From NCBI GenBank assembly GCA_036172245.1, contig JAYWIR010000009.1, positions 4,836,001 through 4,900,000 on the forward strand: 64,000 nt of DNA, in the 5' to 3' direction. Position numbers and translations under genes: made by a program. The notes under the pieces were generated by a model. That model did no database searches. It saw only the letters and a program-made list of their open reading frames with translations, and had not been told where the DNA came from. This document shows positions 4,064 through 54,200 of the stretch, one piece after another (within the stretch, counting starts at the first letter, position 1; each line of letters begins with the position of its first letter). This stretch comes from Raillietiella orientalis (taxonomy: Eukaryota).

Positions 4064-4099
4064 CTACGCTTTCATCTTAAGCCAAAAGGCCGAGGAACG
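4064..4099 (-). pseudogene. U2 snRNA 5' fragment (nt ~3-37), diverged
   Basis: Reverse complement reads CGTTCCTCGGCCTTTTGGCTTAAGATGAAAGCGTAG versus U2 CGCTTCTCGGCCTTTTGGCTAAGATCAAAGTGTAG. Confidence 0.8.
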
Positions 4100-4722
4100 T
4101 GGGGACGAAAGCCCATGACGCATCCGATCGCGAACACATTCCTACGCACACGCCCGCGCGCAGCTGTCGGTACGCATTTCTTGTTCAAAGTGTCAGATTC
4201 CCATTTTTTGTGTGTGTGTGTGTGCGCGTTTTTTTTTTTTTTTTTTGAAAACAAAACAACAAAAAAAAAGGATGGCGCCAATTTGTGTTTCAGGTGAGTG
4301 AGGCCGAGACGATTCTCAATCATCCGAGCCGTGTGCGTGCGTGCGCGACCGGTTCGAATGTACGCGAAGCAACTCGGCAGCTTCGAGGGTTAACGTGCGT
4401 GAAAACGGTCCTTTTTCTTTGATGTGTCGAACACCGGGGGTGTTCCATCCGTCTTCTGCTCGGCGTATGCGATTTTCCTGCCTCGGAGGCAGCAGCACGC
4501 GCCTCTGGCACCGGTGGAGGGGGGGAACTCGTCCTCGTGGAGACGCGCGCGGTCCTCGACCAACAGCTTCGCGTTCCAGCGGCGTCCGTCCGTCCCCGTG
4601 GGGGCGACCATCGACCAGCGGCTACGGGTGCCAGCGATTCCTTCCTGGCGCCCGGGACAGCTTCACGCGGCAGCGGGAAGAACCGCGCGCCCGCGGACGC
4701 TGCAGGGGACGCCCCCCCCCCC

Positions 4723-4756
4723 ATCGCTTCTCGGTCCTTTGGCTGAGATCAAAGCG
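4723..4756 (+). pseudogene. U2 snRNA 5' fragment (nt 1-~33)
   Basis: ATCGCTTCTCGGTCCTTTGGCTGAGATCAAAGCG. GACGCCCC occurs on both sides (possible target-site duplication, TSD). Confidence 0.88.
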
Positions 4757-7700
4757 ACGCCCCGAGGGAGAGCAAAGGCGGAGACGTCCGGCTTCGTCCT
4801 TTTTTTTGTGCATCTCGAAGTGCACCTACGCGTGGGAGGAGGCAGCGCGCGCGTTGTCCACGCGCTCCAATCCCGATAAGAAGAGACGAGCTTCGTCCGA
4901 TCGGTGGTCCACCTCAGTGTATGGGATCACCGCACGCAGCTGCTGCATGCTTGCGCACTCTCCAGCAAGCGGGTTTGTTTTTTTGTTTGTTTGTCCCCTC
5001 CCCCCTCCCCCATCCTCCCTCACGGAAATCGTGGGAGGTCAGCGAAGATGATCGAGAAGCGACGCTCGAGCCTTCCGTCACCGAGGCAGCAGCAGCATCA
5101 GCATCAGCGCGCCGTCGTCATGCGTGCGCGTGGGGTGACGAGCCGCGGCCCTCGAAGGCGGCGAAACCTCTTTCCCCGCGTGCGCACGTGTTCGTTGCCG
5201 CGCGAGCGGAGCCACAGGAAGTGTGTGTGTGTGTGTGTGGGGGGGGGGGGGACGTCCAGAACGGCACGCCGCCTTCACGCGGAGAAAGAATGGGAAGGGA
5301 GTAACGTGATAATTGGCGAGCAGGAAGTTTCTCTGTTCGCCCGCAATTTTCCCTGGAGGTCGAGGTCAAGAGGATACCCCCCTCCCTTCTTTCCTTCTTT
5401 GCGCGCCCGCCTTGCTCAGGTTACTCCCCAACAATGGATTCCCGTCGTCTTCTGTTGCAGAGGTCATGCGGCCCCTTCCCGAAGAGCGGCGGGAGCGCCG
5501 AGGGCCGCCGCCGTCGCTTGCTGCTCCGCTCCCCGCCAGATGCCCGGCGTGAAGAAGAGGCGAATAGAGCGGCGGCGTGTCGCCGCAGCCGCCATGTCGG
5601 TTCCCTTCAGCCCGGAGGACGGCTGCTGCTCTCGCAAGTGCGCGTGCGGGGGTGGGGTTTCGCAAAAGCGAAGATGCACAAATCGGGGGTGATTCATCCC
5701 CCCGTCGCTTGGAAACAAGTAGTACGTACCTCTGCGGCAGGGGCGTGCCTGCAGGCGAACCGAAGCTGGGGAGGAGGGAAGGAAAAAAAGGTGGAGGGCA
5801 GGGGGGGGACTTGATGACTGGGGCCCGCGAAACGGCAGCAGGCGCGCGAGCTCGCGAACAACAAGGGAGCCGGAGCCGCGAAGGCAGGGGAGCGTCGCGT
5901 CCCCGTGGTTGCACGAGGACAACGAACAGGAAGCACTCAATGGCGCGGAAAGGAGGCTACAGCCACGGGGGGGCTTTGCCCCCCTTCTTATCACAGCGTG
6001 CGGGATGAGCATCGAAATGGCCCCGAGATGACTTCCCTATCCTGCCAAGCTTCCTTCTTCCTTTTCCGGAACGTCCCACGATCCCTCCTGGCTCTTCCTC
6101 CCTCGCCGGCAAAGAGCGGCGGGGTAGATGATGATTATGAAGATGATGAGGAGGAGGAAAATGGGGTCGCTCCCGACTGAGTTTCCGATGATTCGGGATG
6201 CAGTTTTGGGAGCTTCGTGCATCCCGTAGACGAAAGGCAACAACGTCAAGAAGCCCTCCCTCCGCCTTCTTCTCACCCGGTGACCGAAGAAGGGCGACAC
6301 AAGGCGGGATGGGAGGGGGGGGAGGGACGGTGCGACATCGCCGGAGGAAGACCAAAGTCCTTCCCGCTCGAAACTTCCAGGGTGGGCGTCACGCCACCTG
6401 GACGACCTCCTCCTGTGGTGCTCCCAGGGAAAGGAACCGAAAGAAAAAGAGCCGGAAGACGCAGGACTGGCGCGGCGGAACACCCCAGGGCGGAACCCGA
6501 ACTCGACTGGAAGTTTCGAGACGGACGCTCTTCAGAAGACTGGTGGTGGTGATGGGGTGGGGTATGAAACTGGAACGCATGCGCATGCAGTCCTTCCCAG
6601 AGGTCTCCATTTTGTCACTCGTCTTGGGTGGAGTCCTGGCTTTGCAGGTCCGTCTCCAAGAGGAGTTCGTGTTCTTGCGGTGCACCCGGGTGGCCATTCC
6701 GTTCTTCGCGGTCATCAGACCTCTGCGGAAGCCGAAGCGTTTCTCGTGGCGACGGGGCTGCGCCGCCTGCGGGCAGGGAGCAGCAGAAGAGGGAGCGGAA
6801 AACCAGGAATGAGGCAGGCGTCCTCCTGGTTCTCCGCACGGGACGCACGCAGGGAGATCCTCCTTCCGCTTTCTTTCTGAAGGGGGTCGGGGAGTCCGCG
6901 TTTTTGCAGCCTCGCCGGCTGGCACGCCCCCACGAAGGATCGACACAGCCGAATTGGATGCGTCGCGGGTTGCGAGTCCCCCCGCGAGATGACGCGCAAG
7001 GCGGCTCGCGAGCTTCCGCAGCGCATTGTTAGGGAGCGCACGCGTTCGCGGCCGGATGCAACGTCGACCTTTCCCGCAGGGCGGACCCTTCATCCCGTCT
7101 CAGGCGGACCTCGGATGCGTGGCAGCTGAAGAGCCCCCCCTCCCCCAGAAGGGGGCGTCGACCGCCCCCCATCCTCATGGAGTTCTTGAGTACGTGGAGA
7201 AACGAGGAAGGGAAAGGAAGTGGCCCGCCGCCGTCCGCTCCACGATCGTGGTGAGGAATTCCGATAAGGGAGGAGGAGGGGGAAGCGCGAGAGCCACAAA
7301 GGACGCGGAGGGACCGGGGGGGGGGGAGAGTAGGGACGCCTCCAGCTGTGCATCGGAGCATCATGCGAGACGGAGTCCCAGGCCGGCGCACCTGGCCGCG
7401 GTACTGCTGGCGGCAACGCGCGAGGGTTACCAGGCGACCCTGGTTTTAGGGAAGCGACGGGCCGACAGCCCAACGCGGGGATCCAACGAGTTGGGAGGGA
7501 TGGTATCTGGCGACGCCATTGCCGGGATACTCGGAAACCACACAACCCCTATGGGCGGTGGTCGTCTGTTCCGAGGCCGAGAGCCGAGGGGAGACGGGTA
7601 AAGGGAGAAGGGGTCGGAGGCGTGCGAAGAAAGATCGCTCGGTTCCCTGGCAATTCCGACAAGGGGAGGAGATTTGCCGTCGCCTGGAGACAGCCGCGGG

Positions 7701-9550: not shown

Positions 9551-9554
9551 GCGA

Positions 9555-12500
9555 CGCACCGACGGCTGAAGGGAATCCTGGATTCTCCTGTGACCAGGGA
9601 GGGGAAGGCCAAGGAGGAACGGACGCGTCGGGAGCCCTTGCGGTCGCGGTCGATCTGCACAAAGCTTTCGATTTTCACCCGGATTTCGCCGGGTCGTTTA
9701 TTTAAAAAAATAAACTTTACAAAAGTTGTCAGTGGCTGTAGCAATGCTCCAGCCACGCACGAAGAAACACGGAGCCTGCCGGGTCATCGGTTCGCAGACC
9801 GGTACGGTCCTCCAAGGCAGCAGGGGGACGGGGTAAAACAAAAAACTAAACAAAAAGAAAAAAAAAAGAGTGGGAGGGTACGGGAAGGGATCACTGTTGC
9901 TGCTGGGGCCGTATCATCCTTCTCAGGATGCCGGCAAGCTCTTGCTGCATGCTTGGATCCAGGTGGGGCCATCGCGACGCCCTCCTCAGGAACTGGGAGG
10001 CTGGCTGGATGGCATCCTGGTCGTGTGGTCCTCCCGTAGCCTTGCTCCAGGCGGCGACGATCCCGCGAAGGCAGCACAGGGCTGCTAACCAGGCCGCTGG
10101 CCCAAGGGCGTCGGCAACGAAGACGGCTTTAAGAACGTCCCTGGGGTTGCCGCAGGGGATTCCTATGGCCGCGGCAAAGCGGAACCAAAGGGGCCGAAGG
10201 GCAACACAATCCACTAGCAGGTGGGGGAGGGACTCCCGTTCCCCACACCTGACGCAATTGGGGTCCACCGCTCCCCAGGTCCAGTGGTGTCTGCGGGCGT
10301 TGCAGGGGAGTCCCCAGTGCTCCAACAGGAATGCCGACTCCTGGCATTTTAAGGGGAAAGTGGAGGTGTCCATTAGTACCGGGGGCCACTTCAAACGTTC
10401 AATGAGAACGTCGAGCAGCGCGCTTCAGCGTAGAAGTCCATGGGGAGGCGTACTCGGGGTGGCAGCGTCAGTCAGCTGACCCATCTTCCACTCTCCTATC
10501 TTCTTCTCCTTCCCGGAGATTGTAACTGTAACCTCCCACTTCGGCGCAACATCGCTGTCGGAATCTTCCACTGGGGAGGCCAGCGCAGCAGCGAGGGGGG
10601 TTCTTCCTCGAGGAGGCGAGGGCTCGCTTCTTCGGATCCTCCGGGATCTCTCGGAGCGTGCAACTTCTGTAGCACCGAAACAAGAACCGTAGTTCCTGTT
10701 GGGCGCGTTGCATGCTGCACTGTCCCCACGTTCGAACGGTTTCATGCAACCAGGCACTACCGTTCAAAGGGCGACAGGTGACCAATCCTTGGTTTTTCCG
10801 TGTCAGCGCAGCCACCCTCCGTAGCTGAAGACCGCATCGGTTGACGCGGCGACGCAGTGCAAGAAACGACGTCAGTCCCGTCTTGCCGGTGGCTTGCTGG
10901 AGAAGGAGACGTGCAGGGACGCACCAACAGGTGCACCACAACTCTGGAACAAGTGCCGACATTCGGAACTGGAGCTGAAGCTCCAGCCGCTCCAATGTCA
11001 GGAGGCCGAGACCACCGTCTCGACGAGGAGCGCACAAGTCCTTTAAGCGGACTCGGGCCCTCCTGTTGCCCCAAAGGGCGATACGGAGGAGGTCCTTTGT
11101 CCGCTTTTTTATCCTCTCTGTGGGGGGGGAAACAAAAAGCAGGGGGCGGAGGAGAGGAGCCGCGAACGTGTTCCAAACCGCGGCCCGTTCAGGCAGGAAA
11201 AACCTGCCGCCTCGGAACGGGCCGATCGCCGTCTCTACTTTTTGGAGGCAGCAGGACCACGCTTCCGCAGGGGAGTAGTCCCCCAACGGTACACCAAGGT
11301 ACTTGAAGTACCTCACCGTGGGGATCCCCAAACGAACCCCGTCCTGCTGCCCTGCCCACGCCGCACCAACTGGCATCACGGACGACTTCGCCCTGTTCAC
11401 CGTAAGTCCGGTTCCCCGATGCAGCAGGTCGAAGAACTCCTCGACCGCCGAAGCCGGAATAGACATAGGGAGCAGCAGCAGAAGGTCGTCCGCGTACGCT
11501 GAAACCGCCGGTCTACCAGCGCAGTCGTGCGGGAGGTGAACCAGAGTTACCCTCTACGCTCTGAGCACCAATTTGAAATAGGCGCTGAAGAGCAAGGAGC
11601 TCAGGCTGTCTCCCTGCAGTATGCCACGCTGTCTCCCTGCACAAAGCTTTCGACTGCCTCGACCGGGAACTCCTCCTGGAGCTCCAGAAACGCGTGGGAT
11701 TCCCTTCCGTGTCCCTGGCCAATCTGAGCTCCTGCTGGCGCTTCGTGCTAATTAACATTTTTTGCGGCGGCCGACACGCGTGCGTCGTGCCCGTTCGCCG
11801 CTGCATAAGGTAGGACGACAGCTTCAGTCCCCTGCTCTTCAGCATCTACTTTGAGTTGGTGCTGAGAGCATACAGGAAGACTCTGGCAAGCCTGCTGAGC
11901 TCGTGTCCGGGCACTCCTGCCGTGTCGGCTTACGCGGACGATCTGCTGCTGCTGCTCCCCGGGTCCACCCCGGCATCAGCGCCGGTTTCTTCGAGTTGCT
12001 TAGCCGCGGGACAAGTCTGGAGGTGAACAGGGCGAAGTCGTCCATAGTGCCGACTGGCTCGACGTGGGCCGGACGGTCGGAGCGGATCCGCTTGGGGATC
12101 CCCACGGACCGGTACTTCAGGTACCTTGACTTTCCGTTGTGGACTTCTGAGTTGCAGAGACCCTGGTCCGGCCATCTCCAAAAGGTGAGGATGGCGCTCG
12201 GCTCGTTCCAAAATGGTAGGTTTCACATACCGGAACGGGCGGCGGTGGGGAACACGTTTGCGGTCTCTCTGCTTTGCCCTACTTTTTGTTTGCCGCGCTT
12301 CTGAGGCTATTCAAAAAAGGATCGAGGACCTCCTGAGGAAAGCCTTGTGGGGCAAAGGGAGGTCCCGAGTTCTCTTGAAAAACCTGTGTGCTCCGCGCAA
12401 AGATGGTTGACTGGGCCTCCCTACGCTTGAGCAAATAGCGCGTCAGCTCCAATTCAGAAGACTCGCCCTTGCGACGAAGTTTTGGACAACGCCTTGGTGC

Positions 12501-15075: not shown

Positions 15076-15084
15076 TTCCGAGGC

Positions 15085-17880: not shown

Positions 17881-18260
17881 TTTTTTACTCGGTCACGCCG
17901 CAGTGTTTGTTTTCTAAAAAAATAAACCAGTTGGGAACAAAGTTTCCAACCGACGGCAACCAGAAACGAAAGGGAGGGTCCACGGGCACGCAGTCCAGGA
18001 CAACAGAGTTCCTACGGGGAAGGGACACGAGGGCAACAAAAATAAACAAACTGGGTGGGAAGGGGCAGGGGTCTTTGGTTTCGCTCCGTGTGCACCGGGA
18101 TAAAAACAAAAAGCACCAAGAAAGTGACGGAGCGAATGGAGGTGGGGAATAAGAGAAAAATTAAAAAATAAAGGGAGGGAAGGGACACGGATCATCGAGT
18201 CCGTGGTTCCAAACCATCCATCAACCGGCGGTGGATGCCGGCGATCTCCTCCTTGGACCT
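17881..18260 (-). mobile_element. 3'-end fragment of the L1/Tx1-like family
   Basis: Reverse complement has a pyrimidine tract, the hairpin CGGTTGGAAAC-TTT-GTTCCCAACTG and terminal AAACAAACACTGCGGCGTGACCGAGTAAAAAA. Confidence 0.65.
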
Positions 18261-18279
18261 CTTCCAGGTGGAAATAACT

Positions 18280-21200
18280 CTTTGAAAATAACGTTCGTAC
18301 CAACATGTTCTACCCACCGACTTTTCTATCGAGTGATGGGCAACTATTCATTGACTACGACCCTCCACGGGAGTGCCCTTGTCCTATTCCAGACTGCGCG
18401 TTCGTGTGCACAGCGGCCCTCACTAAGAACCGCAATAGGAACCTCAAGGGGCACCTAGCCCGCATCCACTGGGTGGTTATCGATGCTCCTCGATACTTTT
18501 GCCCCAAATGCATCGTCTACGACGGCAATCACCGAGTCTTCTCTCCTCATGTCTGCCGGCCTCGTGATCTCCCACGCCCATCCATTCCACCTGCACTACG
18601 TGCCCGTTACTCGCAATGCCGTGCATCATTTGATAGACCTCACCCCTTAAGGCAGCATATCAACTGGCAACATGCAAAAACCGATCCCAAAGGCGGAGCC
18701 TTCGAAGCTCTGCAGGACATTACGGAGGATTCATCAATCGGTACCAGTCCTCAGCCGGTGACCTCCGTCGCCCGCCTCTGCACGACACAGATGGATGTCT
18801 GGAGAGACGTGGATGCCACCAAGGAAGCAGACCAGCCACTGGAGGCGATCCTCTGCACCCCAAGTGCACTGCGACGCTCAGCCAGCATAAGCAGCCCAGC
18901 ACTCCTGGAAGGCTCCCATTGCCGGAAACACCATGTCGGCAGCCCACCAAACGGCCGCCTATACGTTCCCTCGTGGGTGACGACTTTCCCCCGCTGCCAA
19001 GCTCACCCTTGCATGCCACACCGGCGGACTCAAGCTCCTGCCTCCTAGTGCTTCCGTCCATTCCGGCGACATATCTGGATGATCCGCGCCTCAGAGCTGA
19101 GCCTATGGTACGACTATCTCCATTACCCCAGGCTGATATTGAGCGGTTGTTACACGACAGTCCAGAGCCGAGCGGACCGCTAACCCTGTCTTGCCCATGC
19201 GGCCAGCATGATGCAGGCAGCTCCCATGACTCCGTGCTAACCGTGGCGTCTTCCTCTCAGACTGGAATGGAGTTTTCGACCACTTGTGCCCACCCTGCAC
19301 CGCCAGCGCACCCGGCTTAAGTGCGCTCCTTCGAACCAAAAGGACAAAGGAGGAGACGAGTGGCTCTTCAAATCCCCAAGTTGGATCGCGTCCTAGCCAA
19401 CACTAGACATATACGTGCTAATGTACCCAAAATGCGACCTGAGGCCCAACGGGCCATACCAACTGAGCCTGAGCAGGCTGCGCTGCAAACTGGCTGAGTC
19501 CAGCGCACAGAACAGAATGGGGTCACACAACTCCGAGTGCCATCTCACTCGGTGCTGTCGGAGGATGACGTTCTGGCTGTCTACCTCCCGACTGCCACCA
19601 GCATGCCCTGCCCTCTCCCTGAATGCAGATGGTCCTCCTCTGCTATGGTATCCAAAAACGTCCTAGGATTGCTTCGGCGACACATCCAGAGCGCGCACTG
19701 GATTCCGATCAAGGGAACCTACTTGATCTGCAGGCAGTGAGGCAAGAACTTAACTCCTCCTCTGTGGCGGCATCGTTGTGGTCCCAAACCTCTTCGACCC
19801 TTTGAGGTACTTGCTCCACTTGTCTGCTCAGCTCCCAGCTGCGGCCAACTCTTCCATAACCATAAGGCGCTTTCCAGCCACCGTAGGTGGCATGATGCGC
19901 TGGGCAGACAGCAGCGCATGTGCGGCAGCCAGCCAACGTTTCTCCCGCGCGCTGATAGAGGCGCGCGGCCTCGGTCAGACTACCGTGAGGACGGCGCGCG
20001 CAGCCAGCTGCGGCTTCCCACAGGTAGGCCAGCAGACCCACAAAGGGGGCCGCGCGACGTTACAGACTCGGTTCTGCTACCAAGATCGGCGCATACGCAA
20101 CTGTCTGTCCCGTCGGTCCCCTCCCCACCTCTTGAGCAGCAGTGGAAGACAGTGCGAGCGCGTAGCCACCGAATGAGCGATGCGAACCACCCACAGGCCA
20201 CGCGTACTCGGGCCCTCCACCCTCAGAGCGGGGAATCTGAACAGGGGCAAGGACCACCTCCCGTCCCTGGATCCCGATGAGCCCTGCTCGTTGATGCAAG
20301 CGAGCTCGACCCTCTGGAGCATGTAGCTCCTAGTCATCCCCGGACGAGTACGCGTGCGGCCACCGCTTCTCGGCCTTTTGCCTAAGATCAAAGTGCAAGG
20401 GCGCCGCCGAGGACAACGTTGTTCGATAGTCCGCAACGCGCTGAGTCCTCCCTTGCTTTCCTTGACGAGGCTACCGCAACTCTAGAGGACTTAGCTCAGC
20501 GTCTTCTGACCATTGATAATTGGGGGCTATGCGGACTCTCTTCTCCATCTACACGGCCACTCAACACACGCTTCGCCTCCGCCCCTTCTCCCCTCAATCG
20601 AGTGCCATCCTCCCCCAATCGATTACTCCGAAGGCTATTCAGCACCTATATAGGCGGAACGGAGACTTGCGATTAGGTTTATCCTCCACGGGACACCCAT
20701 GCGGTGCAGGGCGGACCCTGAGAGAATCCATACGCACTTCTCCAAGCTTTTCAATCCCTCCTGCCTTCAGGCCGTTCCCTTGGGACTTCGGGATAGCTGC
20801 TGAGCAAGACGGTGTGAGCAGGTCCCCTTTCATCCCGCAGGAGATTGTGAGCTGCCTCAGACTCTGTGAGGACACAACTCCTGGATAGGATGGTCTAACG
20901 TGCTTTGCCTTTCGCAAGGTGGATCCCGAGGCACGCATGTTATGCGCCGTCTTTAACCTCTGCCTGGTACACTGGAGCATCCCTGCCGAATGGAAGAACT
21001 CCAGGACCACACTCACCCCCAAAGGCTCGGTCCAGGATCCTGAAGACCTAGCGCAGTTCCACCCAATTGTGATCAGCAGCACGATTGGCAATATGTTTAT
21101 CAAATTCATGGCCAGGCGCATGCGAGATTCGATTCACTGGAACGCGGTTACAGGTTCGCATCAAAAGGGATTTCTCCCTTTCGATGGGATGCTAGAGCAT

Positions 21201-23200
21201 AACTTCATGCTCGCGTACCTCAAGGAATATAGCCGGAGGCAGCATCACACACTCTGTGCGGCGTGGATAGATCTAAAGGATGCCTACTCCTCGATTCCCC
21301 ACACGCAGCTTGTGCGCTCCAGTGTGCCGGAGCAGGTGACATTTCTGTGGAACTGATCTGCGACATGTATACAGCCAAAAACACCCAGGTTTTGACCTCT
21401 ACCGGGTTCTTTCCGCCCACATACATCTTCCGTGAGGTGAAGCAGGGTTGTGCTCTCTGGGCTATTGTTCGATGCCAGGGCATTAGGACAAAAGTGCCCG
21501 TAGTGACAGTGCTAGCTTATGCGGACGACCTGGTTGTCTTAATACAGGACGCCGAGAGTTTGCAAGTAACCCTTAACTACACATGCTGGATCTCTGAACG
21601 TTTAGAGTTTACGATAAATGCCAGAAAATGTTCCTAATTCCACTACGATCCGTCCACTCCAGAACAGTCAGCCAGATGCCTTTTGAGATCGCTAGCGATC
21701 CCATACCCGCCCTCACCGACACTGGCACATACAACTATCTCGGGAAGCCTGAGGACTTCGATGCCATTCGGAGCGATGCTCTCGACACCGAGATACTGAA
21801 CGATGTGTTCAAAGTGTTAGATGCACCACTGGCACCCTGGCAGAAGAACGATGCCCTGAAGACATTTGTCTTACCCTCCTTTGTCCCTTCGAATGGGCTC
21901 TAAATCCAAGACTTTCTGGAGTGGGATTGACAACATCCTCAGGAACGCGCTCAAAGAGGATATTCTCCCGCTGACGCAAGCCTCCTCGATGGAGTATCTG
22001 TTCGGATCTGTGGCCCGAGGATCCCTGGGCATGCTGATCCTAGCGGAGGAAGCCGATATCATGGCCACCGACTCCGCGTTTAAACTCTTAATTTGCTCTG
22101 ACCCGGTTATTCGTCAGTTCGCCAGAGACTTCCTGAATGAGGCCGTCCGGGAAAAAGTGCGACAACAGCCAGATGCACAACTCGTCTCAGCATATCTAAG
22201 AGGGGACCTCGCTCCACCCCTGCATCGCCCAACAGGGGATCCTGCAAACTTTGGTCCCGTGTCCGGTAAGCCTCGAAGAGACTTGGCATTCAATGGAACT
22301 ACTCCCACAGTGCAGTGACGATCCCCTCACCAATCGGACTCTTTGCGAGAGCGATCGGAAGGTTGTGGCCCACACCATACGTAGGGTTAGGCGCCTCCAC
22401 TAAGTCGGACTCCACGTGCGAAGCCTGATGAAGACCGCACGATCGATTGCGTGATGCTCCGCCCTGCGTCCATATGCTTCCTGGAGCGCAGTGAGCTATT
22501 ACACTTCAGTGACTGGCGGTTCATACACCGCGCCAGACTGAACCAATTGACACTGAATGGCAATGTTAAGCACTCAGACTTTCATGAGGCTGCCAGCATC
22601 CAAAGGAGACATTGGTCCATGTACTTTGCCATTGCCTCCACCGCTAGGATCTGGGTACTAGGATAGCGGACAGACACAATTCGGTAATTCACCACTGGAG
22701 GCTGTTGGTAGTGATCACTGAACCGGAAATGAAACAGAAATGAGTGATGATGATCCTTGAGGTGAACGCCCCTTAATAAATGGCCACAGCTGGCAATCGA
22801 CCGTTCCGATCCCGAAATCAACAGTGCTCTCCGCCCAGACCTGGTGGCTTCCGATGGGCAGCGTGTCCTCATCACCAATGTAACGATCCCGTATGAAAAC
22901 CGAAAGGCGTCCCTCGACGCTGCTAGGACCAGGAAGATCACCAAATACCAACTCGTGAAGCAGGACTACGAGGCACAGGGCTTCCCAGTCAAAATAGATG
23001 CGCTCGTTATTGGGTCGCTGGGAAGTTGGCACCCCAATAACGCTGCGGTCCTGAGCTTTCTCGACCTGAGAAATCGCACAATGAAGGCGGTTCGCCCTGT
23101 CATGATCTCAGTGATCCGAGAGGCCCGCGATATCTACTTCGACCACGTCTCCAGCCGACCCTCTGGACTCTCTAGGGAACCAAATAGTGCCAGCAGACAC
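18280..23200 (+). mobile_element. Decayed RLE-type non-LTR retrotransposon (NeSL/Utopia-like, R2 superfamily)
   Basis: N-terminal Cys/His fingers (CPCPIPDC..HLARIH..CPKC; CPLPEC..RHIQSAH). RT motifs: PG*DG, IPAEWK, HQKGFLPFDGMLEHNF, WIDLKDAYSSIPH, VKQGC, LAYADDLV, YNYLG. Then LAPWQKND, DWRFIHRARLN and the restriction-like endonuclease RPDLV..NVTIPYENR..AR..K..KY..VIGSLGSW. Many stops and frameshifts; 19780-20360 looks like a foreign minus-strand insert. Confidence 0.9.
20362..20395 (+). pseudogene. U2 snRNA 5' fragment (nt 1-34)
   Basis: ACCGCTTCTCGGCCTTTTGCCTAAGATCAAAGTG, 2 mismatches to the U2 5' end. Confidence 0.9.
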
Positions 23201-23239
23201 TCGGATCCTTTCCTCCAACTGCAAGCCTCCTTGTGCGAG

Positions 23240-25526
23240 GACCTTATCTCTTTGTAACTTTCACCTGCAACTGTTGTTCGATACCCTCTCTGAGGATCAT
23301 TTTGTAACAGTGCGTGGAAATAAAAGCCACCTTGCAGCCGTCTTCATGTAGGTGGCTGCCATCCTGGTGACTTCCCTTCACTGTGTGGTCGTTTCGAGCA
23401 CAGGGACGGGCCCTATCGATGGCACAGATGCAACCCATGGTCGCAATAGCAGCGCCCATCGAGAGGCTTCTCAGCGTGCTGAACCGCCACAGCATGTCTC
23501 GGGTGGTGTCCTCCTGGTGCAGGAGCGCTGTTGCCAGCCTCCGCCACAGTTCCCAGAGGGCAATGCAGTCCAAGAGCCGGTGCGAGATCGACTCCGTCGA
23601 CCCGCACCTGGCACAGTGCGGGGATGCAACGGAAAGCGCACCTGGCAGCGAGAAACCTGGCTGGAAGACGCACGCGTTGATGAATGCTGCCACTCCACGT
23701 GCTGAGGCGACAAGACGCTTTCGGTGGGTGAACTTTGGAGTGTTAACCTCGAAGAACTTGTGGTTCCTCTCCATTCCTTATACACTTCGGTGTTTTCGCT
23801 CCCTGGAAACAGGACTTGCTGCTGTTCATCCACTGGGAATTCCAGTGCAACGAGCGGCGACACCGAGTTTCCGCCAGGAGTACGACAGGGGGGCAACACT
23901 CAAGAGTTCGCCCCACCGAAGGAATCCCTTCGCCACTGAACGCGGAGTGGCAGCATCCACCAACTCACTCTTATAGGCACCGAGGAGTTTTGTTTTTCCC
24001 GCTATGGTGCAGGAAAACTCCGACTTCGCTGGTTGGCTACTGTCGTCTCTTGCCCTGAGGGCAGGCAGCGCTGCGGCAACGGTCGAAAACTTCACCGCGT
24101 CCTGCATCACCACTTCCAGAGGTTGTGGCAACAGATGTCGCAGGGAGTGAAGATCTTCAGGGCGCATTCCTAGGAATGCAGTCCAGGATTCAACGGCTTC
24201 CTGCTGCCAGAGCTGAAGTTCGTTGGGAGGCAGAAGATCCACGGATGGACTTCCACTAGAAAGGCGAATTGCCTCAGGGGAAGCCGAACCCCTGCATCCT
24301 GTAAACGAGCTCGGCAGCAATCTTTTGCTGCCGGCCATCTCTGCAGGATGATGCATGCGGGCGCACACAACGGGGGTGTCCACAGCTGTGCCGGGACAGT
24401 CGTACCTCTCCTTACCACACCTTCCTTCTCAGATCACCACAGTTCGTAGGCGCAGGGCGTTGGTCGCAACGCTTGCCTCCCTCAGAGTCTTAGTGGAGGG
24501 CGAGCCACTAGAAAACGACCCTGCCACATTTCGCCACAGAGTCAGACTCGAGACGGGAGCGTTTAAAGTCCCATCCTGTGTTTTTAGGTTGAACTGTTGG
24601 TCGCCATGCCGATCGCATCCGCTGACGTCAGGACGCTCCGTGCCGGTTCCCGGAGCACGCTTTCTCGAAAGCAGTCTTGCCCTGATCGAGGAAAGTTTTG
24701 TTTAGAAATATTCTTGCTGGTGGTGCCCTCCAGGACTTGCTGCTTCGCAGCATTGAGAAGTTTCCCTAAGCTCACGGGTGTTGACTACCATTGCCAGCCC
24801 TCGCATCCTTTGAGCGGCGGAAGCTTGCTGAAGATGGCGAGTGAAGGCGCCATGGAGGAAGCTGCAGCATCCCATCCGAATGGTGTCTTGGCCCGTAGCC
24901 AAGCAGTCGCCTCTTCGACTCGGTCACCCACCCCTGCGAGGCTATGGAGCAAAATGATGGCAGTTTCTGCACCTCCGAAACAGCGGGAGGTGGCGGAATA
25001 TGTGGCTCAGCGCTGCTACAGTCCGCTCCTCCTATACAAGGTAAGTCGCCTGGGATCTCGGGCGTGGCAGCGAATACGGAGCGCAAACTTTCGTGGGAAA
25101 CTTCGGAGTTAAGGGGAAATGAAATGAGGATGCAAGCAAAGCAAGCACGGGACCTCTCCTGCATAGACGCTGCCCTCATGCAGCGTCTCTTGAGGATGCT
25201 TCTGAATATCCTCTGAATATTGAGGCACCAAAACGCCTGGGATCTGCACCTTCAATCGCTGAGGGGGATACCGCCAAATATGTCGGACGGGCAGTTTGCC
25301 ACAGTCTCCAACGTCCACGCTCCGGCCCGGGTTTCGAGGCAGGACTAGCTTCGGTCAGGATGGCGGCTGCAGAAAGAGCAACCACCCTCCACATTCTGTA
25401 TTTCGTAGTGGGGACGACATAGGTCGACGAAATACGCGTCTGCCTACAGGCGCGGTAGAAGGCGCGTAGCAGCTGACCACGGCTTTCTACGCGCCTTCCG
25501 CCAGAGCAATACGGTGGGCACCAACA
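23240..25526 (-). mobile_element. L1/Tx1-like fragments (ORF2 C-terminal region), probably composite
   Basis: CARCGSTESISHRLLDC..LWRRLATALLH is homologous to 15700-16000. RCCWCPP near 25520 is homologous to CTCWCVP of the 9672-11636 copy. Confidence 0.7.
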
Positions 25527-32827: not shown

Positions 32828-32862
32828 ATCGCTTCTCGGCCTTTTGGCTAAGATCAAAGTGT
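32828..32862 (+). pseudogene. U2 snRNA 5' fragment (nt 1-35), perfect match
   Basis: ATCGCTTCTCGGCCTTTTGGCTAAGATCAAAGTGT. Confidence 0.95.
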
Positions 32863-32954: not shown

Positions 32955-32959
32955 GACCC

Positions 32960-32964
32960 TTTTT
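32960..32964 (+). terminator. Oligo-T RNA polymerase III terminator-like run after the 5S copy
   Basis: TTTTT starts 6 nt after the 5S 3' end. Confidence 0.55.
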
Positions 32965-33849
32965 ACCTGGATGCAATTGTGGTGGGCTCTCTGGGATCCT
33001 GGGACCCCAAAAATGACGAGGCAAACGCCCGCCTTGGCATCCCGGATACGGTGGCGACAACTCTGAGGAAGGCGGCAATCGCCTCCACGATAAGATAGTC
33101 AAGGGATATCTACTCCCACCACATCGAGCGCCCAAACCCCCCCGGACCCTCTAGCCCAACAGAAGCCTCTAGTGAACCTGATGCCTCCCAATCCGGTCTG
33201 CAGCTTTCTGCCCCCAAACTCCCGCAAGATCCCCAGCCTACAAAGCCTGCATTGGAACAACTGGACGCCCTGGGAGCCACTTATGGTCCACCCATCACGT
33301 GAAGAAACCCCGCCGTTACAGCTGAGGGAGCGGAAAACATGCGACTTTATATTCTGCTTCCATGGACCTAACCCACCCACGCATTGATCAGAGCCTCTTT
33401 CAACTGATTGAAGAGATTAAGCCTTAGCGATTCATTTCACGAGCCGCCGCAAATAGCGTAACCCCTATTTATACCTCTAGGAGAGGAAACAATGTAAATC
33501 CCAAAAGCAATAAAGACCTAGTTGGCATCTCGTCGGGACTGCCCTCAGTCGGCCTCAGATGAGCTGGCATGTCTTCCTGGGGCAGTCTGCTTCGCGGGAG
33601 CGGAGCTGGCGACCCCCCTCTCCACCTCCTTCCCTTAGCCTCCCCCTGGACTTGCCAGCGTGAAGTGCGAGGTCAGCGTCGGGTACTCCTGCGCGCACGC
33701 TCATTCAACGTCCCGTGAACGATTCCCCTCAGGCGTGGGCGTGGCGTCTTGCCGGACGCTCGGACTGGTGTACGGCGGCCTCGCCAACACGGTAGGCAGG
33801 GAGCCTGCGTCCGAGGTGGGGAAGCCCCAAAGAGGCGCTTTGGAGTTCG

Positions 33850-34300: not shown

Positions 34301-34449
34301 GTCTTCCTTCCTTCCTCCTCCTCGTCTTTCCTTCCTCCTCCTCCCTCCTCATGCAACACTGACCCAGACGAGAAGCCTGCTCTCGTTGTTGCAGGCGGTG
34401 TCGACCATCACGGAGACCCTGAGGTCCAGTCCGTGCTAGGGTCAGTGTC

Positions 34450-37405: not shown

Positions 37406-37434
37406 CACTTTGATCTTAGCAAAAAGGCCGAGAA
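37406..37434 (-). pseudogene. U2 snRNA 5' fragment (nt ~6-34)
   Basis: Reverse complement TTCTCGGCCTTTTTGCTAAGATCAAAGTG, with a short (G)AAGGG direct repeat on both sides. Confidence 0.88.
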
Positions 37435-38599
37435 ACCCTTCCTTCCTCTTCTGTTCTCTTCCCGCCTCCTGCACCGCTTTATAAATAGATTATTTTTTTT
37501 TGCTTTTTTTAAAAAAGAGCGGGGGTAATCCTGATTCCCTTCCCTCTTGATTCGCTTCTCTAGTGTTTGGAAACGTACCGACGGCACAGCTGCGAAGGCC
37601 TCGCGGGGCTGCGCACCCGCCATCTTTTGTCCCCCTGACTTCGTCGCACCCCTTAAAGCGACCTCAAAGTCCACGCGAGTCACGGCGGTCGCGGGGTAGC
37701 GCGGGGTCGCAGCAGCAGCTGGCTTCCCCGGTCTCTTCCGGGAGCGGTGGAACTCGAGGGCGTCGCCCCGTCTGGAGGTGCACCTGGAGGAAAAGGGGTC
37801 GCTCCTCCGAGGCGAAAGGTCGCCGCTGCGACGCAAGGGCCTCCACTCCCCCGCCTTTCCAAGCAGGCTGGCGGCGGAGCGCCCGGTGGCTCCGCGAAAG
37901 GAACCGCCGAAGCTGCGACGCGCACCATGGGGACTCACGCCGCCTCCTATCGGGCGGATTCCAGGGAGGCAGTGGCGCCGGAAGCAGGATCATCCTGGCT
38001 CGGTAGACCAGCCTAAGGGAGCGGAGCTCGCGCATGCGCTCTCTCCCAGACACGCAACGATCGGAGACTCAGCCTACGCCTGCTCCGCGGCGCCATTTTC
38101 GCGAACCGAAGAGATTCGTGCGACGAACGGCCTCTGCGTGGATGCTCGCGGCAGCTGCGCCGCGAGTGGATCTTCTCTCGGGTGGTGAGCTTTCAGTTCC
38201 TGAACTTCCCCAAGGAGGATCACCCGAAAAACCCACAGGAACATTCGGCCCGGCCTTCTGCTGTCCGCCGTCTTTTCGGCGCGCAGGTAACCGTGGACTC
38301 TGTGGGACGACGGAAGCTTCGAAGATCTCCGCTGTCATCGAAACCAAGTGTAAGGCCCCACCGCCTTCCTGCCGACGAATGAGACCGTCCGTGTCCCGAC
38401 GGTTGCCTCTCCGACTTCCAGGAGCAGCCAAAAATGAGAAGAAGACCCGCGTAAAGTTTACGACGACACTAGAGGTCGTGCCTCACACCCAACATGGCCG
38501 CGACATACACTGGACCCACAGACTGAAGGAAGCGCCCAGAACGCTCAAGGAGAACTGGTGTCTGTTGGTGCAGGTGCAGGAAGGAGATTCTTGCAGACG

Positions 38600-51200: not shown

Positions 51201-54200
51201 AAAGAAGGAAAGCTCCTGCCTTTCCCCTCTATAAAGCTGTGACTGTTGCTGGGTCTACGAAGGCGTAATGCGAAGACACTGTGGTAACACCTGGGGTGGT
51301 GGTCAGCACAGGATTGTCGCAGAGCGCGACGCGAGAGTACGCCGCGTGGGGTGCGTTGCCGAGCAGCAGGGTACGATGACCACCACCACCACCGCCACCA
51401 CTCCCTTTCGAAGTCAGCGGTCCTCGAGAGCGGAAAATTTTTTCCTCGCTCTCCCCCACTACTCCTTCAGCGGGTCGCTCTCGCTGGCGGAGATGACTCC
51501 GTCTTCCTTCTTGCCGAGCGCCATCCAGAGCGTTCCTGAAACCCAAAGACGTCCGTCTAAGAGCCGGGATCTATGAACAGCGAGAGGCAATGTAAAAATG
51601 ACGACGACGGCGAAGACGACGACGAGGATGAATTATCTCATGAGCACCTTCGCTGCCGCCTTTCCAAGAAGTAGCGGGAGAGAGAAAATTCCTCGCGACC
51701 GTCAGTACTGCCAACCCTGCAACCTACTCCGCAGCCTCAGACTGCCAGAGGTCAGCAGAAGACTTGCGGAAGACTCTGCTGAAGCTAGTGGCGGTCGCCG
51801 CACCGAAGCTGTTCTTCAGGTCCGAGGCGACTCTTGGCTACGCTGTCGGTCGGCAGCTCCAGAGAAACTGCGGGCGATTTCCCCCTTCGCCTGAGGACCC
51901 TAGGAGGTGGAGGTGCGGCGACCCTGGGTAGAGAGGAGGTGGGAGGCGGGAGGGCATCGGGGAGCGATGCCTTTGCCCTGGGTTCAGCAGGGTCATTCCG
52001 TGCCAAAGACTTCTTTCCGCAGGGCGCGCGCGAGGTTCGGCGCCAGGGAGACGGCAAGCGTCTGCCTTCCTCGCATGGACCTCCGACTGACCACCTCCTC
52101 CGAACCCGCGACCCGGGGGGGGAGGGGGATGGTGAGACTCGTCCGGCGCCGGAAAGCGGCGATCTGACGCCGGCACCGCGAGTCCCTGCAATGGACGTCT
52201 CCCGATCCAACCCTGAACGGTTCCTCCGGACCCGCCAAGAAGGTGTCCACGGCCGCTTCGGAGAGCGCGCGCCAGGTACTGGCTGCGAGGCAGGTGTCCG
52301 CCACCCCTTTCGGGGGGGAGGGTCTGCCTGATGAGTTTTCCCAGCATGCAACGTGTCTGTGGAGGGCTAGGTCCCGGCGACTAAATCTACTAGATGATGA
52401 TGGCACGTCAATCGGTGAATGAACACAGCTCATTCGAGTGAGCCCGTGGTAGGCCTCCGCACTCTTCGTCCATGCATCTCTGTCTTTCCTCCTACAGACC
52501 AAATGGGATTGCTAGCACGTGGTTTCACGGCCTTTTGGCTAAGATCGAAGTGAGTTGCAGAGTGGGAAGGGAGAAAGTAGGCACAGCGGTTCCTTGCGGT
52601 GGGACGCTTGGATTTATGGGTGTTGTGAAAGCGCACAGCGCTGCTGTGGGGTGCGGGACGTTCTGGGAAGGATTGAGGGAAAAATAAGATAAAACTCATC
52701 TGCGAAAGTCAATTTTAATTAATGAAAAGAGGAAAACCAACAATGGGAAACTGCGAGCCTGAGGAGCCATGCATCACTTAAATCAAATTTGGAGTTTTTT
52801 TGTCTCCTTTTGTTTGGAAATGCGAAAACAGAATGTTTCCATGGGAACCTTCTTTGTTTTCGGAGAGAGGGAAAGAAGGATGAGTCATTCCGTCTAAATA
52901 TATATACATACATACATATATTTAGACGAAATTTGCGTTTATATGTATAGGAAACATTTGTTTGTTTGTTTATAAACAGAATCCCACGAATATTCGTGGG
53001 ATCGGGAGAGGCTGCCGCGGCAGAAATTCAGGCGTCGGATTGAAGGATTTGAGGCAGTCGCTCTGGAGCAGCAGGCAGCGAATTTTCGCATACGGCGGCG
53101 GCCCATTTTGTGCGCTGACCATGGGAGCCCTTGTAGTTCGCGGCTGAGTCGGTTGCAAGGGTTCCTGGCCAGTAGCCGGCACACTTCGCGAGCGCGTGCC
53201 AGCCGTCGGCCCTCCCGGAGAGTCGCCTCGGGGAAGAGCCGTTCTTTCGCCGCGGGGGGCGCCGCGTGGCGGCAGGCAGGAACGCTCGTTCGCGAGCCAG
53301 CCACTCTCGAAGGACTCGCTCCCTCCCTGCCCCCTCCCGCTTCTTCCCCAAAGGCGCCCTTGGACCCCGATGCCTGCGCAACTGCCCGGCTCCTCTCCCT
53401 TTCCCTTTTTGCAGCCTGTCAAGGGCTCCGCGCGGCCGCCCGGAGGTGCCGGTCTGCCGGGGGCACGGGTCGACTCGGAGAGGAATCCGCCGCGTCCGCT
53501 TCCTGGGCTCGGAGGCTCCAGCACGCTGCCCGAGCTCGCCGCGGTGGGCGCCCGTCCCATCTTGGTGTCCTCCTCCTCCCCCCCCTTCACCCGCCTGCTG
53601 TCGTTGCAGATCCAGATCCCCAAGCAGCCCGACGGATGCTGCCTGCTGTACCCTTCCTACGACAGCCTGGAGGAGCTGCAGAAGGACAAGAAAGGTCAGT
53701 TGCCCCCATCCCCATCCCGACGCAGTGCGGGATCCGGGAGGCGACGGACGGGTAGCAGGGGCAGGGAGGAAGACGTCCATCCCGGTCCTGCAGCCCGCGG
53801 CGAGGCGGAAGCAGCGGAGCGTGCTGTTCCTTCCTGCGCCGCCAGGGGCGCTGCGGACGCTTCCGCTTTCCTCCTTCCAGACCCCAGCAAGTACCGCTTC
53901 GTGTGCTGGGACATTGCCAAGAGGGGCACCGTCGGCGAGAACATCCTCCACCTCTGCATGCTCAATTCCTCGTCCGTCCATGAGGACCTCGCCCGCAGAA
54001 TCATCCGGCACTTCCCCAAAATGATCAACGACATCTACATCTGTGACGAGTACTACGGTGAGGACGGTAGGGCTACGCCTCCCCCCGCGGGGAGAGGCGC
54101 CTCCGTGGGAGAAACCCTCCCCTCTTCCACGCCTCCGGGCAAAGCGACGCCTGGAGGCGGGTGCTGTTGAGGAAGAGGGCGACACCCGCCCTCGGTTTAG

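What the first reader, a model, noticed from the sequence alone, without database searches (positions are those of the whole stretch)
4064..52552. Six dispersed U2 snRNA 5'-end fragments that all stop at the branch-point-recognition sequence
Seen: U2 5' ends at 4064-4099(-), 4723-4756(+), 20362-20395(+), 32828-32862(+), 37406-37434(-) and 52524-52552(+), about one per 10 kb, on both strands and of differing divergence. Five end at ...AAAGTG (U2 nt ~33-35) and one at nt 37. No matching U2 3' part is present, and each copy is followed by a different sequence. Two have short flanking direct repeats (GACGCCCC; GAAGGG). Known: Utopia (RLE) and Keno (Tx1) retrotransposons target this part of U2; tailless U2 retrocopies exist in mammals; U2-headed SINEU elements exist in crocodilians. 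Inference: a long-running process here repeatedly reverse-transcribes a fixed U2 5' fragment, either alone or as a cap joined by template switching to other RNAs. This may be an undescribed high-copy U2-head retro-system in an arthropod.
Basis: partly seen in the sequence, partly recalled or inferred. Interest (0 to 1): 0.78.

Follow-up and report, generated by a model that had tools for sequence, protein, structure and literature searches.

The report
Retrocopied U2 snRNA heads, LINE-linked
Six copies of the first 34 bases of the U2 spliceosomal RNA are scattered through this stretch, most likely pasted in by the reverse transcriptase of a jumping gene; this is an unusual variant of a known process, not a new kind of system.

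Summary
Exactly six U2 5' heads lie in the window (nhmmer E 4e-9 to 7e-12, next hit E about 1). Five end at ...AAAGTG (nt 34) and one at nt 37. No U2 3' part is present and the flanks share nothing.

New here:
- Head c4 is a three-part chimera. U2 1-34 joins nt 1 of a 5S rRNA copy, and the 5S 3' end joins the last ~60 codons of an R2-superfamily (restriction-like endonuclease) LINE.
- Head c3 sits inside another copy of that kind of LINE.
- Heads c2 and c5 are flanked by 8- and 6-nt direct repeats, as if the head went in alone.
- In two other organisms, full-length APE-type LINEs inserted at U2 sequences begin exactly after ...GTG, the same boundary.

Best reading (about 0.7): a LINE reverse transcriptase repeatedly copied a U2 1-34 RNA, either alone or as the last template of a template-jump series. 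Why the end is fixed is inferred, not shown. It could be the leader of U2-LINE co-transcripts, or entry at the exposed branch-point-recognition sequence.

Closest known: the recurrent 5' additions of U2 pieces in crocodilian SINEU, and Utopia/Keno. I rate it a new variant of a known kind. Genome-wide copy number could not be tested.

The parts
4064..4100 (-). U2 head c1, diverged; U2 similarity runs to ...AAAGCGTAG (nt 37)
   Evidence: nhmmer E 3.9e-09; sequence read
4723..4756 (+). U2 head c2, nt 1-34 (ATCGC...AAAGCG), preceded by a run of 11 C
   Evidence: nhmmer E 5.2e-10
4708..4715 (.). Upstream copy of the 8-nt direct repeat GACGCCCC flanking c2. The second copy is at 4756-4763 and shares the last G of the head.
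   Evidence: a flanking repeat of at least 8 nt occurs at 0.8% of 20,000 random mock sites
20362..20395 (+). U2 head c3, nt 1-34 (ACCGC...AAAGTG). It lies inside a LINE copy, between the N-terminal region and the RT.
   Evidence: nhmmer E 6.2e-11; LINE profile hits on both sides
19552..23327 (+). Decayed R2-superfamily (RLE-type) LINE copy: N-terminal region 19552-20142, pre-RT and RT 20657-22249, C-terminal RLE domain 22415-23158. The 3' end is at about 23321-23327. The 5' end is undetermined, somewhere in 18265-19550. It is nested in another LINE-like repeat.
   Evidence: Pfam RVT_1 on 2 ORFs; 2358 RT relatives; profile hits E 5.8e-43, 1.1e-35 and others; R2 C-terminal domain match 1.1e-06; empty-site paralogue
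32828..32861 (+). U2 head c4, nt 1-34, identical to the consensus of the six. G32861 is shared with the 5S start.
   Evidence: nhmmer E 6.7e-12; Rfam U2 33.1 bits
32861..32955 (+). 5S rRNA retro-pseudogene, model positions 1-120 with about 23 internal positions missing
   Evidence: Rfam RF00001, 72.1 bits, E 2.8e-13, alignment shown
32958..33212 (+). Last ~60 codons and downstream frame of an R2-superfamily LINE, joined 2 nt after the 5S 3' end. The 3' limit of the element is not determined (possibly near 33516).
   Evidence: 59 tblastn hits to C-termini of RT relatives, best 1.3e-13; profile positions 1174-1216, E 1.9e-11; 37% identity to the c3 LINE C-terminus, E 1e-10, starting at 32958
37406..37439 (-). 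U2 head c5. It is clear from nt 6 (TTCTCGG, 37434). GAAGGG direct repeats lie at 37436-37441 and 37401-37406.
   Evidence: nhmmer E 1.5e-10; repeat test, at least 6 nt at 8% of random sites
52519..52552 (+). U2 head c6. It is clear from nt 6 (TTCACGG, 52524) and ends ...ATCGAAGTG.
   Evidence: nhmmer E 3.3e-10

Best explanation
The six heads are DNA copies of a short RNA made of U2 snRNA nt 1-34. A non-LTR retrotransposon (LINE) reverse transcriptase made and inserted them at different times.

The fragment served in two ways. It was the sole template, giving solo heads with short target-site duplications (c2, c5, perhaps c3). In c4 the order of copying was LINE 3' end, then the whole 5S rRNA, then U2 34 to 1.

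The most likely enzyme is the R2-superfamily LINE with a restriction-like endonuclease whose decayed copies lie in the window.

Shown:
- the anatomy of the copies;
- the three-part chimera;
- the LINE type;
- the fixed end point;
- the same ...GTG| boundary at full-length LINE 5' junctions with U2 sequence in two other organisms.

Inferred:
- that this RT did it;
- that the template was a free 34-nt RNA. I favour the leader released from, or carried by, U2-promoter-driven transcripts of LINEs that sit in U2 genes with their 5' junction at nt 34 (about 0.35). The alternative is entry of the RT at the single-stranded branch-point-recognition sequence of U2 snRNA (about 0.35).
For: 1. RNA origin. 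c2, c3 and c4 begin at the U2 +1 position (A[T/C]CGC). No promoter-like or any other upstream similarity exists. No U2 3' part exists.

2. The chimera. c4 joins U2 nt 34 to nt 1 of 5S with a 1-nt overlap. The 5S 3' end (model position 120) lies 2 nt before LINE codons PFYLDAIVVGSLGSW, which align to the c3 LINE C-terminus. No LINE similarity lies upstream of c4.

3. The LINE type. RVT_1 was found in 12 of 12 long relatives scanned, Exo_endo_phos in 0 of 12, and N-terminal zinc fingers in 3 of 12. Relative P0027 matches solved R2 proteins at 1.8e-62, against about 1e-13 for L1 ORF2p. Window 22775-23158 matches the R2 C-terminal domain at 1.1e-06. R2 RT is known for serial template jumping (PMC8594491, search listing and start of the abstract only; Bibillo and Eickbush 2004, as cited in PMC4494074 section 17).

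4. Solo insertion. An 8-nt repeat flanks c2 (p about 0.008 per site) and a 6-nt repeat flanks c5 (p about 0.08). A 9-nt repeat flanks the head in metagenome locus L002.

5. The boundary recurs.
- In L015, U2 1-34 is followed by a LINE ORF1 with a CCHC knuckle.
- In G001:C68, a U2 array unit is cut at ...AAGTG| by a full-length ORF1 + APE + RT LINE.
- A scan that did not constrain the end point gave 51 matches. Four were truncated heads, all ending in or just after the branch-point-recognition region: GTG|, GTGTAG|, GTAGTATCT| and about nt 50.
- SINEU-3 in crocodilians has a 32-bp U2 5' piece (PMC4494074, section 12).
Against: - Only 2 of 6 heads (c3, c4) touch recognisable LINE sequence. For c1, c2, c5 and c6 nothing downstream was identified.
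- c3 lies inside a LINE, not at its 5' end, so its link to the LINE may be a coincidence of insertion.
- Three other 5'-truncated LINE-like copies in the window (3' ends at 9771, 13794, 26455) carry no head.
- No target-site duplication flanks c3, c4, c1 or c6.
- End-to-end jumping predicts entry at an RNA 3' end. No free U2 1-34 RNA has been shown, and no ribozyme was found after the head in L015 or G001:C68.
- The LINEs with a ...GTG| junction in other organisms are APE-type, not the RLE-type seen here.
- The metagenome scan required ...GTG followed by a non-T base, so it cannot measure how common this end point is.
- G001 has no dispersed heads: 16 of 16 matches lie in U2 arrays.
Confidence: 0.7

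Rival explanations
1. The heads are the upstream halves of U2 genes or U2 pseudogenes that were split by target-specific Utopia- or Keno-type LINE insertions. They would be 5' junction relics, and the U2 3' halves were lost later.
For: The boundary is within 5 nt of the Utopia/Keno site; U2 resumes at nt 39 after these elements (PMC4640811, section 6). Real examples of this anatomy were found elsewhere (L015, G001:C68). In G001:C68 one such unit has also lost its U2 3' half.
Against: In the window, none of six heads has a U2 3' part anywhere downstream. None shares upstream sequence with another, as array units or promoters would. c4 has a 5S copy between the head and the LINE. c2 and c5 have direct repeats around the head alone. 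The copies are dispersed on both strands within introns or spacers of ordinary genes.
Confidence: 0.1
2. The heads cap retrocopies of transcripts that started at U2 promoters and read through 5'-truncated LINE insertions resident in U2 genes. No free fragment and no jump to U2 is needed. The junction at nt 34 is inherited from the master copy.
For: This explains a fixed nt-34 end joined to different LINE positions. Full-length LINEs start directly after the head with almost no 5' UTR in G001:C68 and L015, which suggests dependence on the U2 promoter. c4 fits as head + 5S + LINE tail.
Against: It does not explain heads with direct repeats and no LINE tail (c2, c5, L002). It does not explain c3, which lies inside a colinear LINE. 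No LINE tail was recognisable after c1, c2, c5 or c6.
Confidence: 0.15
3. The heads belong to one SINE-like family with a U2-derived head (SINEU-like) whose body has diverged beyond recognition.
For: SINEs with a U2 head exist in crocodilians (PMC4494074, abstract and sections 10-12).
Against: The heads themselves are 80-100% alike, while 400 nt downstream shows no similarity in any of 15 pairs. No A-rich tail or shared 3' end was found. c4's body is a 5S copy plus LINE coding sequence.
Confidence: 0.04
4. The 34-nt unit is a U2-derived spliced leader, and the copies are retroposed trans-spliced mRNAs.
For: A fixed-length 5' unit on varied sequences, at a density near one per gene.
Against: The unit ends ...GTG. 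The following U2 base is T, so there is no GU donor after it. A donor at AAA|GTG would not leave GTG on all six copies. The partner in c4 is a Pol III transcript starting at its own nt 1. No downstream poly(A) was seen.
Confidence: 0.02

Closest known systems
Recurrent 5' addition of U1/U2 pieces in crocodilian SINEU and Tx1-Mar elements (Kojima 2015, PMC4494074)
   Same: Short U2 5' pieces sit at the 5' end of retrocopies, including LINEs themselves. They were added repeatedly and ascribed to template switch. SINEU-3 has a 32-bp U2 5' piece.
   Different: There, the pieces became heads of amplifying families with shared bodies and poly(A) tails, mobilised by APE-type Tx1 LINEs, and the truncation points of the studied U1 additions spread over up to 22 nt. 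Here, every copy has a different partner or none, there are no poly(A) tails, the associated LINE is RLE-type, and the end point is almost invariant.
Utopia (RLE, NeSL clade) and Keno (APE, Tx1 clade) U2-gene-targeting LINEs (Kojima and Jurka 2015, PMC4640811)
   Same: The same part of U2 is involved. The window's LINE has RT plus a C-terminal RLE domain. The A-rich ...AATAAA(A)G ends of the c3 and c4 LINE pieces resemble the insect Utopia 3' termini printed in S1 Fig.
   Different: Utopia and Keno leave the U2 3' part (from nt 39) after the element, and here none is present. The head ends 5 nt before that site. Clade membership of the window's LINE was not tested.
LINE-mediated template-switch chimeric retrocopies (U6-L1, 5S-L1 and similar in mammals), as summarised in PMC4494074 section 19
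   Same: c4 has the classic layout: a LINE 3' part, then small RNAs in sense orientation, with abrupt junctions, and the 5S copied in full from its own 3' end.
   Different: In the mammalian cases the small RNA is copied from its own 3' end. Here U2 is entered at nt 34. The enzyme here is R2-like, not L1.
Tailless retropseudogenes of snRNAs, as summarised in PMC4494074 section 19
   Same: 3'-truncated snRNA copies without a poly(A) tail, flanked by short duplications.
   Different: Those are truncated at different positions. Here 5 of 6 end at the same base.

Membership tests
U2 snRNA gene (Rfam RF00004) | Full-length RNA of about 190 nt with the branch-point-recognition sequence, stem-loops II-IV and an Sm site | tested here: not met
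   Best Rfam score is 33.1 bits against a gathering score of 46. The full-length profile matches positions 1-39 only.
SINEU (snRNA-headed SINEs) | U1- or U2-derived sequence at the 5' end | tested here: met
SINEU (snRNA-headed SINEs) | Family-specific body and 3' region shared among copies, with a poly(A) tail | tested here: not met
   No downstream similarity in 15 of 15 pairs. No A-run follows any head.
Template-switch chimeric retrocopy | LINE 3' part downstream, small RNA(s) upstream, all in the same orientation, with abrupt junctions at RNA ends | tested here: met
   Met for c4 only: U2 | 5S nt 1-120 | LINE C-terminus. Not shown for the other five.
Template-switch chimeric retrocopy | Target-site duplication around the whole chimera | tested here: not met
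   The longest repeat around c4 is 4 nt. The 3' limit of the unit is uncertain, and arthropod Utopia make no TSD (PMC4640811, section 6).
Tailless snRNA retropseudogene | 3' truncation at variable positions, flanked by a TSD | tested here: inconclusive
   TSD-like repeats flank c2 and c5, but the truncation point is fixed (5 of 6 at nt 34).
R2 superfamily / RLE-bearing LINE | Single large ORF with RT in the middle, a C-terminal restriction-like endonuclease domain and no APE domain | tested here: met
   (0 of 12 relatives with APE). A ...RPDLV...ITNVTIPYEN...KITKY stretch is seen in the translation. That this is the PD-(D/E)xK motif is my reading, not a tool result.
Utopia (NeSL clade) | 3' junction with U2 nt 39 onward (TCTGTTC...) | tested here: not met
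   The c3 LINE ends against another repeat. There is no U2 3' part in the window.
Utopia (NeSL clade) | RT phylogeny within Utopia/NeSL | not testable with these tools
   No reference Utopia proteins could be brought into the tools. Only a resemblance of the 3' termini to S1 Fig was seen.

The most novel reading that the evidence does not exclude
A discrete U2 1-34 RNA, ending one base into the GUAGUA branch-point-recognition sequence, is a regular by-product of LINEs that live in U2 genes. It would be the leader of U2-promoter-driven LINE transcripts, perhaps cut off at the junction as R2 cuts off its 28S leader. It would be the preferred last template of their reverse transcriptases. That would explain a ...GTG| boundary shared by RLE-type and APE-type elements in distant animals. 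It would also define a class of 34-nt solo retro-insertions and U2-capped chimeras that repeat annotation misses.
Probability: 0.3. Interest if true: 0.7.

Novelty: new variant of a known kind. Interest (0 to 1): 0.55.

Why it matters
- It would give in-vivo genomic evidence of serial template jumping by an R2-type reverse transcriptase (LINE, then 5S, then U2). This property is now exploited in RNA-seq library methods and known mainly from the test tube.
- It would tie the scattered reports of short U2 heads on retroelements (crocodilian SINEU and Tx1) to the biology of U2-targeting LINEs through a shared, base-precise boundary.
- It flags 34-nt snRNA pieces as a marker of past LINE activity that standard repeat masking and Rfam thresholds do not report.
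- It does not point to a new cellular system.

Tried and rejected
- **Whole genome.** None is held.
- **Sequencing runs.** None was listed for 30000-39999, so no read evidence could be sought.
- **Earlier notes of this scan.** None found.
- **Shared body after the heads.** Rejected.
- **The 14-mer TCCTGCCTTCAGGC.** It lies at nearly the same distance after c3 and c5. The window has 4 matches at up to 2 mismatches against 1.24 expected, and 2 of 100 shuffles reach 4. The global alignment shows nothing else. I treat it as chance.
- **Spliced-leader reading.** Rejected on the junction sequence.
- **Known small RNA after c1, c2, c5 or c6.** None at E up to 5 in small searches. No tRNA in the window.
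- **LINE protein remnants after c1, c2, c5 or c6.** Only chance-level tblastn hits, best E 0.09. No profile hits.
- **LINE tail after c6** (an A-rich ...AAAAATAAG about 140 nt downstream). Alignment with the c3 and c4 LINE ends shows no similarity. The three 3' regions fold no better than shuffles (z -1.6, -0.7, -1.0). AATAAAG occurs 7 times in the window. Not supported.
- **R2-like LINE after the heads of the metagenome loci.** None within 600 nt. No Pfam RT there either.
- **Ribozyme after the head in L015/L001 or G001:C68.** No HDV-like hit. A weak hammerhead hit in L076 is on the other strand.
- **Word-based protein search with the RT fragment.** Found nothing. The exhaustive search found 2358.
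- **Source names for the relatives.** The database was switched off.
- **Records behind the metagenome loci.** Not held, so I could not read further downstream.
- **Viral contigs.** 0 matches.
Full report
**Observation**

The window (57% G+C) holds exactly six copies of the 5' end of U2 snRNA.
- A 25-nt head pattern gave 4 matches at up to 3 mismatches, with none expected.
- A 15-nt core gave 5 matches against 0.09 expected.
- A profile of the six copies found them at E 6.7e-12 to 3.9e-09, and the next hit had E about 1.

All six carry GATCAAAGTG. This has one A more than the Rfam consensus, as in fruit fly and C. elegans U2 printed in the Utopia paper's supplement.

Five copies end at AAAG[T/C]G, which is nt 34. 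c1 continues to ...GTAG, nt 37.

No U2 3' part exists in the window.
- A 20-nt motif of nt 33-52 has no match at up to 3 mismatches.
- A full-length U2 profile built from three metagenomic U2 genes hits only the heads, and the next hit has E 4.8.

The flanks share nothing. Segmental duplication and a common SINE body are therefore excluded.

**What follows the heads**

*c4.* This is the informative copy.
- Rfam places a 5S rRNA at 32861-32955 (72.1 bits, model positions 1-120, about 23 internal positions missing).
- 5S nt 1 shares its G with U2 nt 34.
- Two bases after the 5S 3' end an open frame begins (PFYLDAIVVGSLGSW...). It is 37% identical (E 1e-10) to the C-terminus of the LINE downstream of c3.
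- The same region drew 59 tblastn hits from the C-termini of RT relatives, best 1.3e-13. It also matched positions 1174-1216 of a 1236-position LINE profile at E 1.9e-11.
- Nothing LINE-like lies upstream of c4.

So c4 reads U2 1-34 | 5S 1-120 | last ~60 codons and 3' region of a LINE, all in one orientation with abrupt joints. This is the anatomy expected if a reverse transcriptase started on the LINE RNA 3' end, then jumped to the 3' end of 5S rRNA and copied all of it, then moved to U2 and copied nt 34 to 1.

*c3.* The LINE around it was characterised as follows.
- ORFs at 20889-21353 and 21233-21634 carry RVT_1.
- The first ORF has 2358 relatives among 1.84 billion representatives, best 2.0e-36.
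- I scanned 12 of the 150 listed relatives. All 12 have RVT_1, none has an APE domain, and 3 have N-terminal zinc fingers.
- Relative P0027 matches solved R2 proteins at 1.8e-62 to 1.5e-43, against about 1e-13 for L1 ORF2p.
- Window 22775-23158 itself matches the C-terminal domain of R2 proteins at 1.1e-06.

It is therefore an R2-superfamily LINE of the restriction-like-endonuclease type.

Profile and tblastn hits run colinearly: an N-terminal region at 19552-20142, a break, then 20657-23158. The head at 20362-20395 sits in the break.

A diverged paralogous repeat on the other strand supplies an empty site. 16806-16603 matches 18069-18264, and 16016-15730 matches 23322-23630. So 4.5 to 5.1 kb has been inserted here, ending at about 23321-23327.

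c3 thus lies inside a LINE copy, not at its 5' end. Two readings fit. The head was inserted alone into the LINE later, or the RT left a broken LINE RNA, copied the U2 piece and returned. I cannot tell which.

*c1, c2, c5, c6.* No LINE protein remnant was found downstream, no Rfam family and no similarity to the LINE 3' ends.
- c2 is flanked by GACGCCCC on both sides. A flanking repeat of at least 8 nt occurs at 0.8% of 20,000 random mock sites.
- c5 is flanked by GAAGGG. A flanking repeat of at least 6 nt occurs at 8% of such sites.

These repeats hug the head alone, as for a solo insertion with a target-site duplication. The evidence is moderate for c2 and weak for c5.

**Elsewhere**

*Metagenome scan.* I scanned metagenome contigs for the head followed by a base other than T. 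This design can only find ends at nt 34. It gave 17 loci.
- Four loci are U2 genes with an altered nt 35 (Rfam 49-173 bits).
- Thirteen loci collapse to 8 distinct places where U2 1-34 is followed by unrelated sequence.
- In L015 the sequence after the head runs into an ORF whose only relative is a 364-aa protein with a CCHC knuckle, as in LINE ORF1 proteins.
- In L002 the head plus 4 nt is flanked by a 9-nt direct repeat.

*Genome-contig scan.* A scan of prokaryotic genome contigs with nt 9-30 only did not constrain the end point. It gave 51 matches in 48 loci, evidently eukaryotic DNA binned with MAGs.
- 39 continue as normal U2.
- 7 belong to an odd U2-like repeat.
- 1 is cut by a contig end.
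- 4 are truncated heads, ending at GTG|, GTGTAG|, GTAGTATCT| and about nt 50.

*G001:C68.* The GTG| case was read in full on locus L076.
- A U2 array unit, with 98% identical upstream sequence, is interrupted exactly after ...AAGTG.
- The interrupting element is a full-length LINE with a CCHC ORF1, an APE domain and an RT.
- The next unit is interrupted at ...GTAGTATCT| by a related LINE. That LINE ends in poly(A) followed by TCTGTTCTTATC..., the Keno/Utopia 3' junction (PMC4640811, section 6).
- G001 has no dispersed heads: 16 of 16 matches lie in arrays.

So the ...GTG| boundary recurs as the 5' junction of full-length U2-targeting LINEs in two other organisms. Dispersal of heads is not universal.

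**Mechanism**

Shown:
- The heads start at the U2 transcription start and end at a fixed base.
- They lack U2 flanks and occur alone or on top of other RNA copies.
- One is the outermost member of a three-template chimera whose innermost member is an R2-type LINE tail.

From established knowledge: R2 reverse transcriptase makes continuous cDNA on discontinuous templates by end-to-end jumps. Sources are Bibillo and Eickbush 2004, as cited in PMC4494074 section 17, and PMC8594491, where I saw the search listing and the start of the abstract only.

Inferred: a LINE RT, probably of the R2-type family present here, repeatedly used a U2 1-34 template.

Entering U2 at nt 34 rather than at its 3' end needs a reason. 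I see two.
- **(a) A free 34-nt RNA.** The natural source is the U2 leader of transcripts of LINEs resident in U2 genes, whose 5' junction is at this base in L015 and G001:C68. It could be released by processing at the junction, as R2 processes its 28S leader (recalled, not from a call).
- **(b) Entry at the exposed branch-point-recognition sequence.** nt 34 is the first G of GUAGUA in fly numbering, so RT entry or target priming would fall at the start of this single-stranded stretch. That it is exposed is textbook knowledge, not a call.

I cannot separate (a) from (b). No ribozyme was detected. The Utopia paper does not use the words promoter, ribozyme or co-transcription.

A third reading also fits c4: retrocopies of read-through transcripts from U2 genes that hold truncated LINEs. 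It does not explain the solo heads or c3.

**Comparison with the known**

The closest description is Kojima's SINEU work.
- U1 and U2 5' pieces were added at least five times onto crocodilian SINEU-1.
- Such pieces are also present on some Tx1 LINEs.
- The additions are ascribed to template switch.
- SINEU-3 has a 32-bp U2 5' piece.
(PMC4494074: abstract and sections 10-12, 16, 17 and 19-21 read.)

The present case differs in four ways. There is no amplifying family. There are no poly(A) tails. The LINE is RLE-type, in an invertebrate-like genome. The end point is nearly invariant.

The host gene pieces found are a GKAP exon (its nearest Atlas cluster is commonest in Arthropoda, a weak lead), ankyrin repeats and an ion-transport domain.

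Membership of the window's LINE in Utopia is not established.
- It has the RLE architecture.
- Its 3' ends resemble the insect Utopia termini printed in S1 Fig.
- It is not followed by U2 nt 39 onward.
- No phylogeny could be made.

**Verdict**

This is a new variant of a known kind of event: RT-mediated 5' capping and solo insertion of a small-RNA piece. The recurring base-precise boundary is the one feature that remains unexplained and may prove interesting.

Genome-wide abundance, the enzyme and the origin of the 34-nt template remain open.

I read supplementary file 1 of PMC4640811 only in part (term hits and part 3). Figure 1 of that paper, which shows the 5' junctions of Utopia, is not held and could bear on the nt-34 boundary.

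Noticed in passing
window 9771-11631(-), 13794-16016(-), 26455-27029(-), 18069-18264 + 23322-24365(+): At least four diverged (65-70%) copies of another LINE-like repeat. Three share a sharp 3' end (reverse complement of GGAGCCTGCCGGG...). A zf-RVT hit and weak R2-profile hits lie at 9894-10424 and 10203-10310. None carries a U2 head. One copy is the host of the c3 LINE insertion.
   Followed up: partly
window 10867-11624 vs 11803-12554: Inverted duplication of about 750 bp (69% identity) inside the LINE-like copy.
   Followed up: no
window 25477-25971(+); 54025-55258(+) and 57552-58067(+): Host gene pieces. A GKAP/DLGAP-like exon (Pfam E 2.4e-23), and ankyrin repeats plus the end of an ion-transport domain, which looks like a TRP-like channel gene. 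c6 lies about 1.5 kb upstream of the first ankyrin hit on the same strand.
   Followed up: no
window 1013-1125 and 3112-3198: Two compound (CA)n(TA)n microsatellites of the same layout about 2 kb apart. They draw spurious miRNA and snoRNA hits in Rfam below threshold.
   Followed up: no
L005, L017, L011, L009 (metagenome loci): Otherwise full-length U2 genes (Rfam 49-173 bits) whose branch-point-recognition sequence is altered (GTGAAAGTATC, GTGAGGTTTC, GTGCAGTATC instead of GTGTAGTATC). They may be variant U2 genes or pseudogenes.
   Followed up: no
L076 = G001:C68:23500-35655: A record filed as a bacterial MAG holds eukaryotic DNA: tandem units of about 2.08 kb with a U2 gene and a 5S rRNA gene on opposite strands, several interrupted by ORF1 + APE + RT LINEs. 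The genome has 50 RVT_1 matches.
   Followed up: partly
L021, L043, L046, L056 (genome contigs): A tandem U2-like repeat in which the head is followed by GTAGAAATAACTGTTC... instead of GTGTAGTATCTGTTC, with partial head duplications. It may be a U2-derived satellite or a very unusual U2.
   Followed up: no
window -1 positions of c2, c3, c4 (4722, 20361, 32827): The base before U2 nt 1 is C in all three heads that start at nt 1 (and before the aligned start of c6). It could be an untemplated or cap-related addition, or chance (about 3%).
   Followed up: no
L001 vs L015: Two contigs share at least 120 nt upstream, the head and 59 nt after it, then diverge. One runs into a LINE ORF1. The other runs about 210 nt to a poly(A) run at the contig end. 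It may be an internally deleted, non-autonomous derivative.
   Followed up: partly
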